This document shows positions 16,181-63,600 of a stretch of 64,000 nt of DNA, piece after piece; within the stretch, counting starts at the first letter, position 1; each line of letters begins with the position of its first letter. Origin of the DNA: a virus. The stretch lies in the IMG/VR virus record IMGVR_UViG_3300032220_000699, positions 32,001-96,000 of that record. One strand, given 5' to 3'. A program made the position numbers and the translations under genes. Below the pieces are notes generated by a model. The model was not told where the DNA came from. It searched no databases and saw nothing but the letters and a program-made list of their open reading frames with translations.

Positions 16181-16209
16181 TAAGTTCAATAAGTATATAT
16201 GTAACTATA
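16181..16209. repeat. 29-bp exact repeat, copy 1
   Basis: taagttcaataagtatatatgtaactata, identical to 48206..48234. Confidence 0.9.
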
Positions 16210-16217
16210 AAAAATTC
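16194..16217 (-). promoter_or_regulatory. Early-type promoter GA-N14-CATATATA
   Basis: 73 nt before 16121; 9-bp leader hairpin. Confidence 0.8.
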
Positions 16218-16232
16218 AAAATGTGGTCATTT

Positions 16233-16239
16233 TTTGACT
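16233..16239 (+). promoter_or_regulatory. Late-type motif TTTGACT
   Basis: 25 nt before vRNAP beta' start. Confidence 0.6.
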
Positions 16240-16257
16240 GAATAAAAGGATCTAAAT

Positions 16258-17892
16258 ATGGATGCCACATCTTTAAAGAAATTGCCTGTCAACTTAGACT
16301 TACTTATGGTTACAGAGCAAGACAAAGTACGAGTCGGTGAAGTCACCGATATGCAAATTTTTGACAACACAAATAACTTTCACCCTCAAGGATTATTTAG
16401 TACAACTATTTTCGGTAACATCGGAACTGAATTTAGAAATAGAACATTTGGTTATATTGACTTAAAGACAGAAGTTCTTCATCCATTAATCTATTTTGCA
16501 GTTATCTCGTTAAAGGCTTTTTACAAGCAAATACTAGACGGCACAACAACAGCTGAATGGGATGCTAAGACAAAGTCTTTTATTAAATCAAATTCAGACG
16601 AAGCAAGAACTGGTTATACTTTCTTTGTTGAACATATTGAACAACTTGTCTTTGAAAAGAATGAATCAGAAAAACGTTCTTTCTTAATTGATCTATTTAA
16701 TAAAGCGATTAAAGAACAAAAGTATAAGATGCGATATCTTCTTGTTCTTCCTGCTGGTATCCGTGATTATTCTGTTGATGATAACGGTAAACCACAAGAA
16801 GATGAAATTAATAAGTTTTATCGTAAGGTGTTATTCCAGTCAAGTATTATTGATCCTATTATTTCTAAGAAGTCTCCTGAGGTTTATGACAATATTCGTA
16901 ATAGCTTGCAGAAGATTACACTAGATCTATTTGATTATATTAAGAGTTTACTTGAAGGTAAACACAAACTTATTTTAGGTAAGTGGTTAACTCGTAAGAT
17001 CTTTAATTCAACTCGTAATGTTCTTTCCAATCCGATCGAACGTGCTAACAATATTAATGATCCTAATCGATTAGGTTATAATGAATCGTATATTGGTCTT
17101 CATCAATTCTTGAGAGCTATTGCTCCTAAGACTTTATACGAGATCAAAAACACATACATTAAAGATATCTTTATTGAAAATAATAGTTTTGCTTATTTAA
17201 CGAATGTTAAAACACTGAAGCGTGAAGAAGTAATGAACACGCATATTCAGAAAGACTATGACCTATGGACTTCGTTAGAAGGTCTTGAAAAAGTTATTGG
17301 TAACTTTGCTAACTTAGATCTTCGTCATTTACCTATTACATTGAATAAAGGTAAACACTACCTTGGTCTTGTTTATAAGGATGGTAAGTATTTTAAATTC
17401 TTGCAAGATATAGATTCTGTTCCTGAAGGATTTGATAAGTCTAAAGTTACACCTGTCACTATGGCAGAGTTTCTTTACATGTCTATTTATAGTTTATCAG
17501 GTAAGTATCCTGGTCTCATTACTCGTTATCCTATCACTGGTTATGGTTCTATCTATCCTTGTTTCCTTAAACTCAAAACAACCAACACTTCTGAAAGTTT
17601 AGAAGAGCTTGATTTTGAATGGAAACCTACAGGAAGACTTGCATCGTGTTTCCCTATTAGAGATAAAGATTTCTTTAATACAATTGCGGCACATACTTCT
17701 CACTATAAAGCTATGACGGCTGACGTAGACGGTGACGCTCTTTCTATTATTGGCTTGACAACTGATGAAGCTATTCAAGAAGTTCAAGATTACTTAACAA
17801 GGAAGGAATACTACATTTCTTCTGACAATCGTTTCCACTTTAGTATTAGTCAAGACACTATTGACGCAGTACTGAACTATATGACAGCCTAA
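16258..17892 (+). CDS. Virion RNA polymerase beta' subunit, N-terminal/catalytic part (phiKZ gp180-like)
   Basis: FHPQGLFSTTIFG, FGYIDL, LLVLPAGIRD, ITRYP and catalytic ADVDGD near the C-terminus. Confidence 0.9.
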   Translation: MDATSLKKLPVNLDLLMVTEQDKVRVGEVTDMQIFDNTNNFHPQGLFSTTIFGNIGTEFRNRTFGYIDLKTEVLHPLIYFAVISLKAFYKQILDGTTTAEWDAKTKSFIKSNSDEARTGYTFFVEHIEQLVFEKNESEKRSFLIDLFNKAIKEQKYKMRYLLVLPAGIRDYSVDDNGKPQEDEINKFYRKVLFQSSIIDPIISKKSPEVYDNIRNSLQKITLDLFDYIKSLLEGKHKLILGKWLTRKIFNSTRNVLSNPIERANNINDPNRLGYNESYIGLHQFLRAIAPKTLYEIKNTYIKDIFIENNSFAYLTNVKTLKREEVMNTHIQKDYDLWTSLEGLEKVIGNFANLDLRHLPITLNKGKHYLGLVYKDGKYFKFLQDIDSVPEGFDKSKVTPVTMAEFLYMSIYSLSGKYPGLITRYPITGYGSIYPCFLKLKTTNTSESLEELDFEWKPTGRLASCFPIRDKDFFNTIAAHTSHYKAMTADVDGDALSIIGLTTDEAIQEVQDYLTRKEYYISSDNRFHFSISQDTIDAVLNYMTA

Positions 17893-17923
17893 AGAAGAGA
17901 GAGGGATATCCCTCTCTCTTCTT
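17892..17923. terminator. Bidirectional terminator
   Basis: Purine/pyrimidine inverted repeat between convergent genes. Confidence 0.8.
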
Positions 17924-17927
17924 ATTT

Positions 17928-18158
17928 TTACAAATCAGGTTGTTTGTGTTCTGGGAGAGCATCCATCTTATCAGCATGCTCTCTAGCAATTCTTACAATC
18001 TCAGGATCACCACCGTCTTTTTCTACTTCATCTGCCCAGAATCGGACAGTTTTACTTGCATGTTTATCTTTACCTAAAAGAAGAAAGACTGGCATGTCCT
18101 CAGGAATCTTGTTCTCAGGATCTTGAATACGATTGTAGTCTTCACGAGCATGTAACAT
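17928..18158 (-). CDS. Small helical protein with PVFLLLGKD motif (possible nucleotide-sponge family)
   Basis: AAGGAG RBS; family link is from memory only. Confidence 0.6.
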   Translation of the reverse strand: MLHAREDYNRIQDPENKIPEDMPVFLLLGKDKHASKTVRFWADEVEKDGGDPEIVRIAREHADKMDALPEHKQPDL

Positions 18159-18161
18159 GAC

Positions 18162-18359
18162 TTACTCCTTATCTTTTAAACTAGACTCATAGATAATTCG
18201 TTTACCTAATTGAATCAATTCTTCACCTAGTTCTTTTGGAGAAATTGTTTTTTTAACATTGATAGCACGCCACTGCTGATTATTGAACAAAACACGTAGA
18301 CTACTCATGTCGCCTGTCTTTACCACTTCAATATCTTCTACAACACTAATAGCAGTCAT
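18162..18359 (-). CDS. Hypothetical protein, 65 aa
   Basis: AGGAG RBS. Confidence 0.65.
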   Translation of the reverse strand: MTAISVVEDIEVVKTGDMSSLRVLFNNQQWRAINVKKTISPKELGEELIQLGKRIIYESSLKDKE

Positions 18360-18399
18360 TGTAATCTCCTAGTTAATTTCATAAAGTTTAGAATAAAAT

Positions 18400-18570
18400 A
18401 AAAAAAGAAAAACACTACCTGAAACAGGCAGTGTGAGTGCTTTTCATGTATTTAATAATTTCAGGGTAACGCCCTAATTCAAATCAGCTTAGGACTGACG
18501 ACCAGTGTGGTGTGTGCTAACGAGTCAGAGACTCTACCGCACACACTTCTCTTCCTACCTTAGTAGTTAT
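18400..18570 (-). ncRNA. Candidate structured small RNA
   Basis: ORF-free, GC-richer island with four hairpins; the wobble pairs work only on the minus strand; ends in a U-tract terminator with no upstream minus-strand CDS. Confidence 0.45.
18413..18433 (-). terminator. Terminator with no upstream CDS
   Basis: CACUGCCU/AGGUAGUG with a G-U pair plus U-tract on the minus strand. Confidence 0.75.
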
Positions 18571-18654
18571 AATCTTTGAATACCAAAACATTTTATAACA
18601 GTTTAAAATTAATCAATAAATAATTAAATAATTAAAAAATTAATGAAAGTATGA

Positions 18655-18681: not shown

Positions 18682-20946
18682 ATGGCAATAGGCGACTTAA
18701 TAGGTAGTGCTAAATCAGCCATGGGTTCTGTACAAGGTGCAGTTAGCTCAGCACAAAATATGGTTGGATCAGCTACTTCAGGTTTAAATATTACATCAAA
18801 AACAGATCAGTCAAGAGCTATCGAATCAATCGACTCAACTTTTGACAGAGAATGGTTAAAGAGTACTTTTATTCTTAGAGACGAAGATATAGTTTTAGGT
18901 GATGAATACAGTAAGTGGGTGAGAAAGAATCGTTACATTTCTTCAGCTGACTTTAAGTATACATCTACAGCACCTGGTATGAATATGGCTGTTAATCCTA
19001 AGCCACAATTCACACGTTATGCAGATCCTCGTGTTAGAGGTAAACTTGAATCAAGACCAGAGTTTATTTCTGTGGCAACAACAGGACATCAACATGGTTT
19101 AGGTATGGGTCGTTATTATTCGGAAGCTTTCGATGATAATCAACAACGTATCTTTATGAGATTCGGTGTACCTAAATATATCCCTCTTCTTCTTTGGATA
19201 TATAAGTCATTCGACGTTGATAAAGTTGTTCTTCAGAATAGAGGTGTTATTACTTCTACACTTATTGAAACAGTTGGTCTTATTGCTAAGATGTTTGCTA
19301 TTGCAACAGCACCACTGTTAGCTTTTGGTATGTTTGCTGCGAATGTCATTACTCAGAGTAGTCGTTTCTATTCTGTTAAAGATACAATGTATACTTATTG
19401 GTGTACTGTTGAAAACATCCTTAACCAAATGGCTGCTCGTAGAACAATGATTCCCCATGTTCTTCAAGACTTTACATTCCGTTTAGATAGTCGTATTGGT
19501 ACAGAACAGAAACCAACAGAGAAATTCTTAACTGGGTTTAATGAGATTCTTCCTGATGTTATTAATCCAGAAACTGGACGTATCAGTGTTTTTGCTTTGG
19601 CTTTAAGAGCACAAGCTGCTTTTAACAAAATGAAGAAAGCTGATGTCGAGAAGAATGAATCTAAAACTATCTCGAGTGATTTTACAGGTTATCCTGAGAC
19701 AGGTAATACTTCCCACGATACCTATTTCACGAATAAAGAAGGTAAGGCAACTTTGTTCACAGAGTTGTTATTTAAACGTGCCTATGATTTATTAATCAAA
19801 GATGATAAGGATAACACCGTAAGTCTTGATCAAGATAACAGTACAAATCAAAGTGGTCTTATTGATTTTGATCCAACATGGACTGACGAGAATGGTAAGA
19901 TCCTTTCTCCTAAAGTAAATAAGGATAATCCTGAAGACTCTGTTGAAAAACAAGTCATGGAAAATGCTGAAAAGAAAAAGGATAAATGGGGTAAGTATAA
20001 AGAATACATGATGGCAGAGTTATCTGAAGGTGCTGCCTTTGCTGTATTTAATGTTGAGTATACCGGTTCTATTGGTGAGTCATTTAGCAACTCTTTCGGA
20101 TCTAATCCATTAGAGTCAACATTTAATTCTATCAGTTCAAAAGCACGTAACTTAACTGACTTAATGTCTTCAGCTGCTAATATTCCTGTCGTAGGCGATG
20201 CAATGAAATTTGCAGCAGATGCAGGTGCTAAGATTCTGAGTGAGGCTAGTTTTGGTCTTGCTAACCCACTTCTTGCACTGGCTTATGGTGTTAACATCAC
20301 TATGCCTAAGGTTTGGGAATCTAGTTCAGCCACACTACCTAGAGCGAGTTATAAGATGAAACTTATTTCTCCTTATGGTAATGCATACTCTCAGTTATTT
20401 AATATCTATCTTCCTATGGCTATGCTTCTTGCCGGTAGCCTTCCTAGGTCAACTGGTAATACTTCTTACACCTATCCATTTTTCTGTCAGCTCTTTGACA
20501 GAGGTAGAACAAATATTCAGCTTGGTATGATTGAGTCTGTATCATTTACTCGTGGTACATCTAATCTTGGTTTTAGTCGTGCTGGTCATCCTAATGCAAT
20601 TGATATTGATTTCTCTGTTGCTAATCTTGACGAAATGATAGCAGTTGATGTTTCACAATCTGGTGTACTTGGTAAAGCAATGGCTGCACTTAGTCCAGAC
20701 TTTAGTGACAGTCCTTTTGTTTCTTATCTTAACACAATTACTGCTGTTGATGTTTATACACAAATTTACCGTATACCTATGCTTAGACTTAAACTCGCTG
20801 AACGTATAGCGACATTAAAATCAGTAGTAAATCCAGATCCAGCAGCATTTGCCGCTATGACAGTTCAAAACTTCCCAGGACTTGGTTTTGCTAGAAATGT
20901 TCTTGGTGATAATCACCAAGCGTTACAAGATATAACAATGCGTTAA
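18682..20946 (+). CDS. phiKZ-like virion structural protein, 754 aa (baseplate-region candidate)
   Basis: AAGGA RBS, late motif 27 nt upstream, NPKPQFTRYADP segment recalled from phiKZ-like structural proteins. Confidence 0.6.
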   Translation: MAIGDLIGSAKSAMGSVQGAVSSAQNMVGSATSGLNITSKTDQSRAIESIDSTFDREWLKSTFILRDEDIVLGDEYSKWVRKNRYISSADFKYTSTAPGMNMAVNPKPQFTRYADPRVRGKLESRPEFISVATTGHQHGLGMGRYYSEAFDDNQQRIFMRFGVPKYIPLLLWIYKSFDVDKVVLQNRGVITSTLIETVGLIAKMFAIATAPLLAFGMFAANVITQSSRFYSVKDTMYTYWCTVENILNQMAARRTMIPHVLQDFTFRLDSRIGTEQKPTEKFLTGFNEILPDVINPETGRISVFALALRAQAAFNKMKKADVEKNESKTISSDFTGYPETGNTSHDTYFTNKEGKATLFTELLFKRAYDLLIKDDKDNTVSLDQDNSTNQSGLIDFDPTWTDENGKILSPKVNKDNPEDSVEKQVMENAEKKKDKWGKYKEYMMAELSEGAAFAVFNVEYTGSIGESFSNSFGSNPLESTFNSISSKARNLTDLMSSAANIPVVGDAMKFAADAGAKILSEASFGLANPLLALAYGVNITMPKVWESSSATLPRASYKMKLISPYGNAYSQLFNIYLPMAMLLAGSLPRSTGNTSYTYPFFCQLFDRGRTNIQLGMIESVSFTRGTSNLGFSRAGHPNAIDIDFSVANLDEMIAVDVSQSGVLGKAMAALSPDFSDSPFVSYLNTITAVDVYTQIYRIPMLRLKLAERIATLKSVVNPDPAAFAAMTVQNFPGLGFARNVLGDNHQALQDITMR

Positions 20947-24215: not shown

Positions 24216-24375
24216 CTTTTAACTCCTTGTTGATATGATCTGATTGATCACGGGTCTAGGTAGGGAATCTATTACTGAGATTAGGCACTGGATCAAAAAC
24301 TGCTTGATAACCAGATAACCAATTGATAGTGTTAATCAATAAAAAAATAATAACATTGTACTTAGAGACACTTAA

Positions 24376-24399
24376 TATATATGTTACTAATTTAGCTTC
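24376..24399 (-). promoter_or_regulatory. Early-type promoter GA-N14-CATATATA
   Basis: 161 nt before 24215. Confidence 0.7.
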
Positions 24400-24484
24400 C
24401 AAAACACAAACCACTTATGAAAATTTAAATAAATATGAGAATCCTTTTACAACTTACTTCCAACTATTCATAAAGGTGGGTTAA

Positions 24485-29332: not shown

Positions 29333-29351
29333 GATGGGTTCTCCTTATATT

Positions 29352-29358
29352 AGTCAAA
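29352..29358 (-). promoter_or_regulatory. Late-type motif TTTGACT
   Basis: 26 nt before 29332. Confidence 0.6.
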
Positions 29359-29388
29359 AAATGCTTTGGTTCAACTAAGGAGATTAAA

Positions 29389-57255: not shown

Positions 57256-57304
57256 TTAATGCTCCTTACTCATTTAAGAGTGTAGTGGTTAATATTCCAT
57301 TTAT

Positions 57305-57328
57305 TATATATGTAATCATAAAAAATTC
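57305..57328 (-). promoter_or_regulatory. Early-type promoter GA-N14-CATATATA
   Basis: 50 nt before 57255. Confidence 0.75.
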
Positions 57329-57366
57329 AAAAAAAAAAAGAACTAGGTGGTTACCCACCTAGTCTT

Positions 57367-58962: not shown

Positions 58963-58997
58963 AAAGCTATTTACCCAAATTAGTTAGAAAAAGAAAA

Positions 58998-59024
58998 AAG
59001 ACACCAGGAGTAACCTGGTGTCTT
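58998..59024 (-). terminator. Intrinsic terminator
   Basis: aagacaccagg/cctggtgtctt. Confidence 0.8.
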
Positions 59025-59027
59025 CTA

Positions 59028-59264
59028 TCATTCAGCTGTAAGTATAAGCTGATAATTACCTAAATCAGAAACATCAACATTGACATTCAGTTTAGCTTCA
59101 CAAACAGGACATTCAGCTTTCACATTTTCTTCCCTGTCGAATGCCGGACTATATTCTTCCAACCTATCACAGAGTTCATCAATAATTGGACTCTTAGAGC
59201 GTTTGTCAGAAAGCAGCTGAAGAAGTTCTTTATCAGTGTAATTTGAATAGTTAGTGTGACTCAT
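59028..59264 (-). CDS. Small protein with CPVCEA zinc knuckle
   Basis: Start moved to ATG 59264. Confidence 0.6.
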   Translation of the reverse strand: MSHTNYSNYTDKELLQLLSDKRSKSPIIDELCDRLEEYSPAFDREENVKAECPVCEAKLNVNVDVSDLGNYQLILTAE

Positions 59265-63317: not shown

Positions 63318-63420
63318 GATATCACCTTAGACAGTTAAACAGCTGGTCTAAAGCTAAGATGATCACAATTACCACAATTACTATTTACTTAGTGTCAATT
63401 AATATAGATTTAAATAAAAA

Positions 63421-63446
63421 AACAAGGTGACCAAAGTCACCTTGTT
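63421..63446 (-). terminator. Intrinsic terminator
   Basis: aacaaggtgac/gtcaccttgtt. Confidence 0.8.
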
Positions 63447-63450
63447 CCTG

Positions 63451-63600
63451 TTATGCTTCTTTCTTTTTACTGAACTTCGCAGTGAGAGAATCCTTCATAG
63501 CTTTAGCTTTCCAACCAAGCCAGAAGAATAGGACACCAGTCATTCCCATTGCAAGAATAACGTCACCCCGTCCTGCGAATATACCAACCGCTGTGTTCAT
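63451..63600 (-). CDS. Small membrane protein, 49 aa
   Basis: Translated by hand; ATGA overlap with the upstream stop; TM plus basic tail. Confidence 0.55.
   Translation of the reverse strand: MNTAVGIFAGRGDVILAMGMTGVLFFWLGWKAKAMKDSLTAKFSKKKEA

What the first reader, a model, noticed from the sequence alone, without database searches (positions are those of the whole stretch)
18400..18570. Orphan structured RNA with its own terminator between divergent genes
Seen (minus strand, in order): CUAC-UAAG-GUAG; GUGUGUGC[GGUA]GAGUC-UCU-GACUC[GUUA]GCACACAC (8-bp and 5-bp helices around a symmetric 4x4 internal loop); UCAGU-CCUAA-GCUGA; UAGGG-CGUUA-CCCUG; then a terminator CACUGCCU/AGGUAGUG plus U-tract. 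All three wobble pairs work only on the minus strand. The next gene to the right is on the plus strand, so no CDS can use this terminator. A following CACACU can pair in an alternative register with AGUGUG, suggesting a possible switch. Inference: an undescribed small RNA of about 150-170 nt, placed just upstream of two small accessory ORFs. Jumbo-phage sRNAs are poorly catalogued.
Basis: partly seen in the sequence, partly recalled or inferred. Interest (0 to 1): 0.72.

Follow-up and report, generated by a model that had tools for sequence, protein, structure and literature searches.

The report
New four-way-junction small RNA in phage
Between two virion genes of an uncultivated phiKZ-like phage lies a roughly 185-nt non-coding RNA gene that folds into a four-armed junction, is kept by compensating mutations in related phages, matches no known RNA family, and has no known function.

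Summary
The hairpins and the terminator are real, and they belong to a conserved RNA on the minus strand. The core (window 18589-18471) matches no Rfam family, tRNA or tmRNA.

Eleven further distinct copies were recovered from metagenomic relatives, about nine lineages in all. They show a four-way junction:
- three hairpins, P2 to P4;
- an A-rich linker and an intrinsic terminator (18434-18412, then a U-run).

In the alignment 95.4% of pair cells are paired, 18 of 40 pairs change on both sides, and slid controls give about 40%. There are 67 G-U cells against 6 A-C cells, which points to RNA on the minus strand.

The RNA heads a variable island between the phiKZ gp180 and gp182 homologues. Zero to three small ORFs follow it. 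Two relatives keep the RNA with no ORF at all, so a stand-alone gene is likelier than a leader.

Expression, the exact 5' end (18589 or about 18584) and the function remain untested. This is a new RNA family within a known kind: small terminated RNAs of phiKZ-like phages. Interest is moderate.

The parts
18590..18601 (-). Promoter-like AT box, CTGTTATAAAAT, directly upstream of the RNA. In relatives it reads TGATAAAAT, TGATATAAT or TGGTATAAT, which is extended -10-like.
   Evidence: Conserved in all copies. It is a perfect TGnTATAAT in L178 and L179. It is not one of the two common promoter motifs of this genome. Function is inferred, not shown.
18575..18589 (-). P1 5' strand, GUUUUGGUAUUCAAA. 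Nucleotides 1-5 are part of the RNA only if transcription starts at or before 18589.
   Evidence: It pairs with 18483-18471. P1 has 14 pairs with 97% of cells paired and 4 pairs changed on both sides. RNAalifold predicts 12 of these pairs, all but the two outermost. Relatives carry ATGTTTTGAT here, which matches the genome's promoter motif 2 and would put the start near 18584.
18555..18566 (-). P2 hairpin. In the window it is reduced to CUAC-UAAG-GUAG. In relatives it is 8-10 bp, CUUARUUC-UACYAAR-GAGYUAAG.
   Evidence: 10 pairs, 95% paired, 3 pairs changed on both sides.
18510..18546 (-). P3 bipartite helix, GUGUGUGC[GGUA]GAGUC-UCU-GACUC[GUUA]GCACACAC.
   Evidence: The inner stem covaries: GAGUC/GACUC, GUGUC/GACAC, GUGC/GCAC and GUCC/GGAC, with 4 of 5 pairs changed on both sides. 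The outer stem has 3 of 4 pairs changed on both sides.
18484..18498 (-). P4 hairpin, UCAGU-CCUAA-GCUGA.
   Evidence: The sequence differs in nearly every lineage but the pairing is kept. All 4 modelled pairs change on both sides and 100% of cells are paired.
18471..18483 (-). P1 3' strand, UUUGAAUUAGGGC, including the conserved AAUCnGGGS motif.
18435..18470 (-). A-rich, mostly unpaired linker between the junction and the terminator.
   Evidence: Present in all copies, with runs of 8-13 A in most. On the plus strand it supplies a U-run, so the hairpin may terminate in both directions. That is an inference.
18399..18434 (-). Intrinsic terminator: a 10-bp stem, ACACUGCCUG-UUU-CAGGUAGUGU, followed by a U-run.
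   Evidence: Found by the terminator scan. It is conserved as a structure with different sequences in relatives. The changes between G-U and A-U or U-G fit only the minus strand.
18366..18386 (-). Separate promoter-like CTTTATGAAATTAA (TATG at 18383-18380) and a Shine-Dalgarno AGGAG in front of the first small ORF.
   Evidence: AACTTTATGArATTAA is kept between the window and L003 although the ORF behind it differs. It resembles genome motif 2, TTTTTTGAAT, and the phiKZ late promoter T-3ATG+1 (PMC7598289). This is an inference.
17928..18359 (-). Variable cargo of the island: ORF family A (65 aa, 18162-18359) and family B (76 aa, 17928-18158).
   Evidence: Three small-protein families A, B and C follow the RNA in the combinations AB, BC, ABC, C or none. 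None has a significant family hit.
17892..17923 (.). Bidirectional terminator shared by the gp180-like gene and the island.
   Evidence: The same hairpin follows the RNA directly, with no ORF between, in L178 and L179.

Best explanation
This is a stand-alone gene for a non-coding RNA of about 180-190 nt on the minus strand.

Transcription starts in the AT-rich spacer, at 18589 or near 18584. The RNA folds into a four-way junction: closing helix P1, hairpin P2, bipartite helix P3 and variable hairpin P4. It continues through an A-rich single-stranded linker and ends at an intrinsic terminator (18434-18399).

The small ORFs behind it are optional cargo with their own TATG-type promoter. The RNA does not regulate them.

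Selection acts on the helices rather than on a long single-stranded seed, and no antisense target stands out in the phage. The most likely mode of action is therefore in trans through its shape, for example by binding a phage or host protein.

Shown here: the structure, its conservation, the strand, its non-coding nature and its independence from the ORFs. Inferred: transcription, the 5' end and the mode of action.
For: - Fold statistics: z = -4.5.
- Model searches: a covariance model built without the window finds the window copy at full length (42.5 bits, E = 4.9e-7), and only once in the 189-kb genome. It also finds four loci that were not in its seed (three distinct sequences), at 55-96 bits.
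- Covariation: 12 distinct sequences give 95.4% of cells paired and 18 of 40 pairs changed on both sides. None of 500 shuffles reaches this, and slid controls give 38-48%. RNAalifold returns the same four helices.
- Strand: 67 G-U cells against 6 A-C cells, so 95% paired on the minus strand against 82% on the plus strand.
- Independence from the ORFs: L178 and L179 keep the RNA, but no ORF lies between it and the gp180 terminator. The ORF set behind the RNA varies (AB, BC, ABC, C). A promoter-like TATG motif sits after the terminator.
- No switch: there is no conserved pairing partner for the terminator's 5' strand.
- No reading frame: the best ORFs read the conserved ACACACCCACC in different frames, and loop lengths differ by single bases.
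- Precedent: short terminated RNAs are documented by cappable-seq and northern blot in phiKZ and 201phi2-1 (PMC10914365, PMC11512511).
Against:
- Only about nine lineages, all close relatives (neighbouring protein 78-96% identical). The alignment was fitted to the model, which favours the structure.
- The promoter is not one of the genome's two common motifs in the window itself, so its strength and timing are unknown.
- The 5' end is ambiguous. Promoter readings put the start near G6 (18584). Covariation of P1 pair 1 and the conserved G-run argue for 18589 or further upstream.
- The trans-acting, protein-binding mode is a guess by exclusion. The host is unknown, so host targets could not be searched.
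Confidence: 0.55

Rival explanations
1. It is a cis-acting leader, meaning a riboswitch or a protein-dependent attenuator. The junction would sense a ligand or a protein and decide whether the terminator stops transcription before ORFs A to C.
For: The order is promoter, structured domain, terminator, then ORFs on the same strand. Its size and four-way junction resemble aptamer domains. In phiKZ, many short RNAs arise by premature termination in 5' UTRs with some read-through (PMC10914365).
Against: L178 and L179 keep the RNA with nothing to regulate. The gene directly behind it differs among relatives (A, B or C). A 25-35-nt A-rich linker separates P1 from the terminator. Truncated-transcript folds show no conserved antiterminator: the partner differs in each lineage or is absent. 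A separate promoter-like motif follows the terminator.
Confidence: 0.15
2. It is a cis-acting RNA that modifies RNA polymerase, like put or EAR (processive antitermination). The folded nascent RNA would make the polymerase that made it ignore the terminator and transcribe the island.
For: HK022 put sites have the same layout: promoter, then stem-loops, then terminator (own knowledge). The element lies next to a phage RNA polymerase subunit gene.
Against: The RNA persists where no gene lies downstream. There is no similarity to any Rfam model, whichever antitermination RNAs that library holds. The terminator is strong and always kept.
Confidence: 0.07
3. It has no RNA function. The spacer would only hold back-to-back promoters and an insulating bidirectional terminator, and the hairpins would be incidental or DNA-level features.
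For: The spacer does carry the gp182-like gene's promoter region and a hairpin flanked by A- and T-runs that could terminate in both directions. Some close relatives (L165, L170) do without the whole island.
Against: Compensatory double changes occur in all four helices, and P4 is rewritten in nearly every lineage while pairing is kept. G-U pairs far outnumber A-C. Core GC is 44% in a genome of about 35% GC.
Confidence: 0.05
4. It is a catalytic RNA or an RNA linked to a mobile element, for example a self-cleaving ribozyme or a guide RNA belonging to the inserted island.
For: The island is present or absent among close relatives like a cassette. Natural hairpin and twister-sister ribozymes use four-way junctions (own knowledge). 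L179 has a DUF723 gene (function not examined) beside the RNA.
Against: No ribozyme family matches at E up to 5-10. The internal loop of P3 is not conserved in sequence. No recombinase, reverse transcriptase or nuclease is consistently linked.
Confidence: 0.05
5. It encodes a micro-peptide that starts at the GUG inside P3, behind the purine-rich AAGAGG.
For: Every copy has a GUG-initiated ORF of 14-31 codons starting at nt 46-54, and relatives have an SD-like AGAGG a few bases upstream.
Against: The conserved ACACACCCACC is read in different frames (EHTHQ, NTPT, AHTT). Single-base length changes in the loops shift the frame. Peptide ends and lengths differ. The substitutions are compensatory for pairing, not synonymous.
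Confidence: 0.02

Closest known systems
Short terminated intergenic and 5'UTR RNAs of phiKZ and 201phi2-1 (ONT-cappable-seq candidates such as the 141-nt RNA upstream of PHIKZ302 and sRNA005 upstream of the gp182 homologue; PMC10914365, PMC11512511)
   Same: The phage group is the same (phiKZ-like, with split multisubunit RNA polymerases). The layout is the same: promoter, 70-200-nt structured RNA, intrinsic terminator, then genes. The function is unknown there too. By coincidence this RNA also lies next to the gp182 homologue.
   Different: Those RNAs were found by transcript mapping, and this one by sequence comparison only. The gp182-associated sRNA is described as derived from that gene's 5' UTR, so it is on the same strand as the gene. 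This RNA is divergent from the gene. No sequence relation could be tested because their sequences were not at hand. None of them is reported as a four-way junction with covariation.
phi29 prohead (packaging) RNA, Rfam RF00044
   Same: Both are phage-encoded RNAs with a core of about 120 nt closed by pairing of the 5' and 3' ends, a multi-helix junction and a 3' extension. Both act, or would act, through shape rather than antisense pairing (own knowledge).
   Different: Rfam gives no match. pRNA has a three-way junction with interlocking loops and belongs to small phi29-like podoviruses. Nothing here links the RNA to packaging.
Riboswitch aptamers with four-way junctions followed by a terminator (for example SAM-I)
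   Same: Size, a closing P1 with three further helices, and an intrinsic terminator downstream on the same strand.
   Different: There is no Rfam match. A long unpaired linker separates P1 from the terminator, there is no conserved antiterminator, the downstream genes vary or are absent, and no conserved junction nucleotides of a known class were seen.
Type III toxin-antitoxin loci (ToxIN-like)
   Same: The order is promoter, non-coding RNA, terminator, then protein gene(s) on one strand.
   Different: There are no tandem repeats in the RNA. The proteins are 65-96 aa with no endoribonuclease family hit. The RNA also occurs without any protein gene.

Membership tests
Any Rfam 15 family | Covariance-model score at or above the family's gathering threshold | tested here: not met
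   The whole window has no match at gathering scores. In the region at E up to 10 there are only two chance-level hits, at 17.3 and 15.6 bits against thresholds of 54 and 127. Nine relatives' loci give no recurrent family.
tRNA / tmRNA | Cloverleaf with anticodon arm, or tmRNA tag, detected by ARAGORN | tested here: not met
   0 genes in the window. Helix lengths of 13-14, 4-10, about 13 and 5-7 bp do not fit a tRNA.
Riboswitch / transcription attenuator | Mutually exclusive terminator and antiterminator that overlap the sensing domain | tested here: not met
   In transcripts truncated at the terminator loop, the terminator's 5' strand is unpaired in L003, L008 and L163, and pairs with non-homologous partners in the others.
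Riboswitch / transcription attenuator | Consistent association with a regulated downstream gene | tested here: not met
   The downstream gene is A, B, C or none.
Phage small terminated RNAs (phiKZ-type ncRNA candidates) | A promoter and an intrinsic terminator less than 250 nt apart on one strand, in an intergenic or 5'UTR position | tested here: met
   There is a promoter-like box at 18601-18590 and a terminator at 18434-18399. Both are conserved in relatives.
Phage small terminated RNAs (phiKZ-type ncRNA candidates) | An abundant discrete transcript with a mapped 5' and 3' end | not testable with these tools
No reads were laid.
Type III toxin-antitoxin antitoxin RNA | Tandem direct repeats processed by an adjacent endoribonuclease toxin | tested here: not met
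   No repeat unit is visible in the sequence; a repeat finder was not run. The adjacent proteins have no significant PADLOC, Pfam or PHROG family. The RNA also occurs alone.
Structured RNA (general criterion) | Compensatory base changes that keep the helices, above controls | tested here: met
   18 of 40 pairs change on both sides and 95.4% of cells are paired, against 38-48% in slid controls. None of 500 shuffles reaches this. RNAalifold agrees. Caveat: the alignment was fitted to the model and there are about 9 lineages.

The most novel reading that the evidence does not exclude
It is an autonomous structured RNA of nucleus-forming phages that works in trans through its four-way-junction fold. 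It could act as a decoy or sponge for a host defence or RNA-binding protein, or as a regulator of one of the phage's own multisubunit RNA polymerases, whose gp180-like subunit gene lies next to it. It would then be a non-coding accessory gene that is gained and lost like a moron.
Probability: 0.25. Interest if true: 0.75.

Novelty: new member of a known kind. Interest (0 to 1): 0.45.

Why it matters
Short terminated RNAs have been mapped in phiKZ-like phages, but almost none has a supported structure or a known function. This one has a defined architecture backed by covariation, clear borders, and natural variants with and without neighbouring ORFs. That gives a concrete candidate for asking what structured RNAs do in phages that bring their own transcription machinery.

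Its reach is limited. The family is known only from a narrow clade of uncultivated phages, and neither expression nor function has been shown.

Tried and rejected
- **Rfam and ARAGORN:** Rfam at gathering and at relaxed thresholds, on the window and on nine relatives, gave nothing. ARAGORN gave nothing.
- **DNA similarity:** blastn of the region against 50,697 phage records found no match. blastn of the RNA against all fetched loci found only L008 weakly. Sequence alone therefore misses most relatives.
- **Alignment method:** plain MAFFT alignments misplace P3, P4 and the 3' end. I replaced them with covariance-model alignments.
- **Model R2 elsewhere:** it found no copy in 160 loci around more distant gp182 homologues, in four other IMG/VR records or in Bacillus phage AgentSmith.
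- **Pattern scans:** scans of the genome and viral collections found only the known IMG/VR relative.
- **Switch idea:** no conserved antiterminator was found.
- **Antisense targets:** the best duplexes with the 216 phage 5' regions are no better than those of shuffled segments. A CUUAG/CUAAG match to the gp182 leader is absent in the window's own copy.
- **Coding:** frames are not conserved.
- **Small ORFs A, B and C:** there is no significant hit in Pfam, PHROGs, NCBIfam or PADLOC, and the Atlas shows only unnamed viral clusters. A word-index search for family C found only two close relatives.
- **Last contig look-up:** it returned no DNA.

Full report
**Observation.** The region is a 322-nt spacer between two minus-strand ORFs (65 aa at 18162-18359 and 76 aa at 17928-18158) and a plus-strand 754-aa gene (18682-20946). 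The minus strand of 18395-18575 folds at -57.5 kcal/mol, with z = -4.5 and 0 of 200 shuffles as stable. The plus strand gives z = -3.2. No Rfam family reaches threshold in the window, relaxed searches give only chance-level hits, and ARAGORN finds no tRNA or tmRNA.

**Context.**
- The window is part of a 189-kb IMG/VR virus record, 94% complete and about 35% GC.
- The gene to the left (16258-17892) is the homologue of the phiKZ virion RNA polymerase subunit gp180 (34% identity, E = 8e-88).
- The 754-aa gene is the homologue of phiKZ gp182 (28%, E = 1e-70).
- The nearest isolate is Bacillus phage AgentSmith, at 59% identity.
- The genome is 93% coding, and this spacer is one of its longest.

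**Relatives.** Homologues of the 754-aa protein were collected and the DNA around them was fetched. In distant relatives, and in two close ones (L165 and L170), the gp180 and gp182 homologues are adjacent on one strand. Only a terminator and the gp182 promoter lie between them. In a subset of close relatives (gp182 homologue 78-96% identical) an island on the opposite strand is inserted between these two genes. Its first element is always the sequence under study.

**Structure.** Single-sequence folds of the relatives showed what the window's own fold hides. This closes a four-way junction. The same fold is possible in the window at a cost of about 5 kcal/mol relative to the unconstrained optimum.

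I tested this fold with covariance models:
- A model built from two relatives recovered the others at full length.
- A second model, built from eight copies without the window, found the window's copy at 42.5 bits (E = 4.9e-7), and only once in the whole genome.
- It also found four loci that were not in its seed, three of them distinct sequences (L176/L177 at 95.8 bits, L179 at 71.7 and L178 at 54.9).

The resulting alignment has 12 distinct sequences from about nine lineages:
- 95.4% of pair cells form standard pairs.
- 18 of 40 pairs show changes on both sides.
- None of 500 column shuffles reaches these values.
- Sliding the 3' partners by 1-3 columns drops pairing to 38-48%.

Every helix contributes. 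P1 has 4 pairs changed on both sides and P2 has 3. The P3 outer stem has 3 and the inner stem has 4 of 5. In P4 all 4 pairs change. RNAalifold predicts the same four helices.

G-U cells outnumber A-C cells 67 to 6. The structure is therefore 95% paired on the minus strand and only 82% on the plus strand. Two caveats apply: the alignment was fitted to the model, and the lineages are few and close.

- The fourth hairpin (UAGGG-CGUUA-CCCUG) is possible only in the window, L163 and L008. In all copies its 5' half is the 3' strand of P1.
- The proposed register switch has no conserved counterpart. When transcripts are truncated at the terminator loop, the terminator's 5' strand is free or pairs with a different partner in each lineage.

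**Stand-alone gene or leader.** Behind the terminator lie three families of small proteins: A (65-74 aa), B (76-83 aa) and C (79-96 aa). They always keep that order but occur as AB (window), BC, ABC or C alone. In L178 and L179 no ORF follows, and the RNA is followed within about 60-100 nt by the bidirectional terminator of the gp180 gene. The RNA is thus the constant part of the island and is maintained, with compensatory changes, where there is nothing downstream to regulate.

A conserved AACTTTATGArATTAA lies between the terminator and whichever ORF comes first. It resembles the genome's motif TTTTTTGA(C/A/T)T. Thirteen of that motif's 24 copies lie 11-38 nt upstream of a same-strand start codon, where 4% would be expected by chance. 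It also resembles the phiKZ late promoter T-3ATG+1 (PMC7598289). The ORFs therefore probably have their own promoter. These points favour an independent RNA gene over a riboswitch or attenuator.

**Promoter and 5' end.** Directly upstream of P1 lies a conserved AT box. It reads TGTTATAAAAT in the window, TGATAAAAT in L008 and L168, TGATATAAT in L179 and TGGTATAAT in L178. It looks like an extended -10 element and is not the genome's common early-type motif ACATATATA-N5-TG.

A sigma-type reading puts the start 6-7 nt downstream, at about G6 or A7 (18584 or 18583). The relatives' ATGTTTTGAT also matches motif 2, read with the start at its G by analogy with the phiKZ late promoter, and this points to the same G. 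Against this, P1 pair 1 switches between G-C and C-G, and the four G opposite the U-run vary only to A. Both facts are expected only if nucleotides 1-5 are transcribed. I could not resolve this conflict.

**Coding and antisense tests.** Each copy has a GUG-started ORF of 14-31 codons inside P3. However, the conserved ACACACCCACC is read in different frames, and single-base loop length changes shift the frame. Duplex searches of the unpaired segments against the 5' regions of all 216 phage genes were no better than shuffled controls. The host is unknown, so host targets could not be examined.

**Comparison with what is known.** Cappable-seq and northern blots in phiKZ and 201phi2-1 revealed dozens of short RNAs delimited by a promoter and a nearby terminator. 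One of them is derived from the 5' UTR of the gp182 homologue and is conserved in EL and PA3 (PMC10914365, PMC11512511). The present RNA is of that general kind and happens to neighbour the same gene. It lies on the opposite strand, so I treat the position as a coincidence. It shares its general form with phi29 pRNA and with four-way-junction aptamers, but it fails the tests for membership of those families, and of type III antitoxin RNAs.

**Verdict.** This is a real, conserved, minus-strand structured RNA that founds a new family. It is most likely a stand-alone gene (confidence about 0.55 for the full statement; about 0.9 that the structured RNA element itself is real). Its function is unknown, and my best guess is that it acts in trans through its fold.

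Noticed in passing
whole genome G000; in the window e.g. 16190-16257, 29333-29388, 57256-57366: Two promoter-like motifs recur. ACATATATA-N5-TG has 27 copies of its ACATATATA core, 17 of them within 70 nt upstream of a same-strand start. ATTTTTTGA(C/A/T)T has 24 copies of its core TTTTTTGA[ACT], 13 of them 11-38 nt upstream of starts, including the gp180- and gp182-like genes. They probably correspond to the early (virion polymerase) and late or middle (non-virion polymerase) promoters of this phage.
   Followed up: partly
window 16258-17892 and 18682-20946: These genes are the homologues of phiKZ gp180 (virion RNA polymerase subunit, 34%, E = 8e-88) and gp182 (28%, E = 1e-70). In phiKZ the tail lysin gp181 lies between them. 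Here and in relatives they are adjacent or separated only by the RNA island.
   Followed up: yes
window 17928-18359; L166:1507-2192; L163:29-509: Three small-protein families A, B and C of unknown function form the variable cargo of the island. Family B (MLHARPDYNRIQDP...) resembles unnamed viral protein clusters in the Atlas (scores about 0.91-0.92).
   Followed up: partly
L179:338-1270: In one relative a 310-aa DUF723 gene (function not examined) is inserted between the RNA gene and the gp182 homologue.
   Followed up: no
L171:2178-2500: A relative with a 73%-identical neighbour has a spacer of similar length at the same place. Its sequence is unrelated and ends in a purine-rich repeat (GGGGGAAAGGGGGAAAGAGAAGAGAGAGAG). 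It has no match to the RNA model.
   Followed up: no
window 17892-17923: A 14-bp bidirectional terminator, AAGAAGAGAGAGGGATATCCCTCTCTCTTCTT. Many terminators of this genome share the GAAGAAGAG...CTCTTCTTC stem sequence.
   Followed up: no
window 24216-24484, 58963-59250, 63318-63596: Three other non-coding spacers of 269-288 nt lie in the window. Further ones lie outside it, at genome 96092-96503 and 112463-113174; tRNA-like sequence was seen near genome 97-98 kb and 122-123 kb. None was examined for structured RNAs.
   Followed up: no
L167:2241-2347: A weak Rfam hit to the trpB motif (32.9 bits against a threshold of 59, E = 0.69) covers P4, the linker and the terminator of one relative only. 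I judge it a chance match driven by the terminator.
   Followed up: partly
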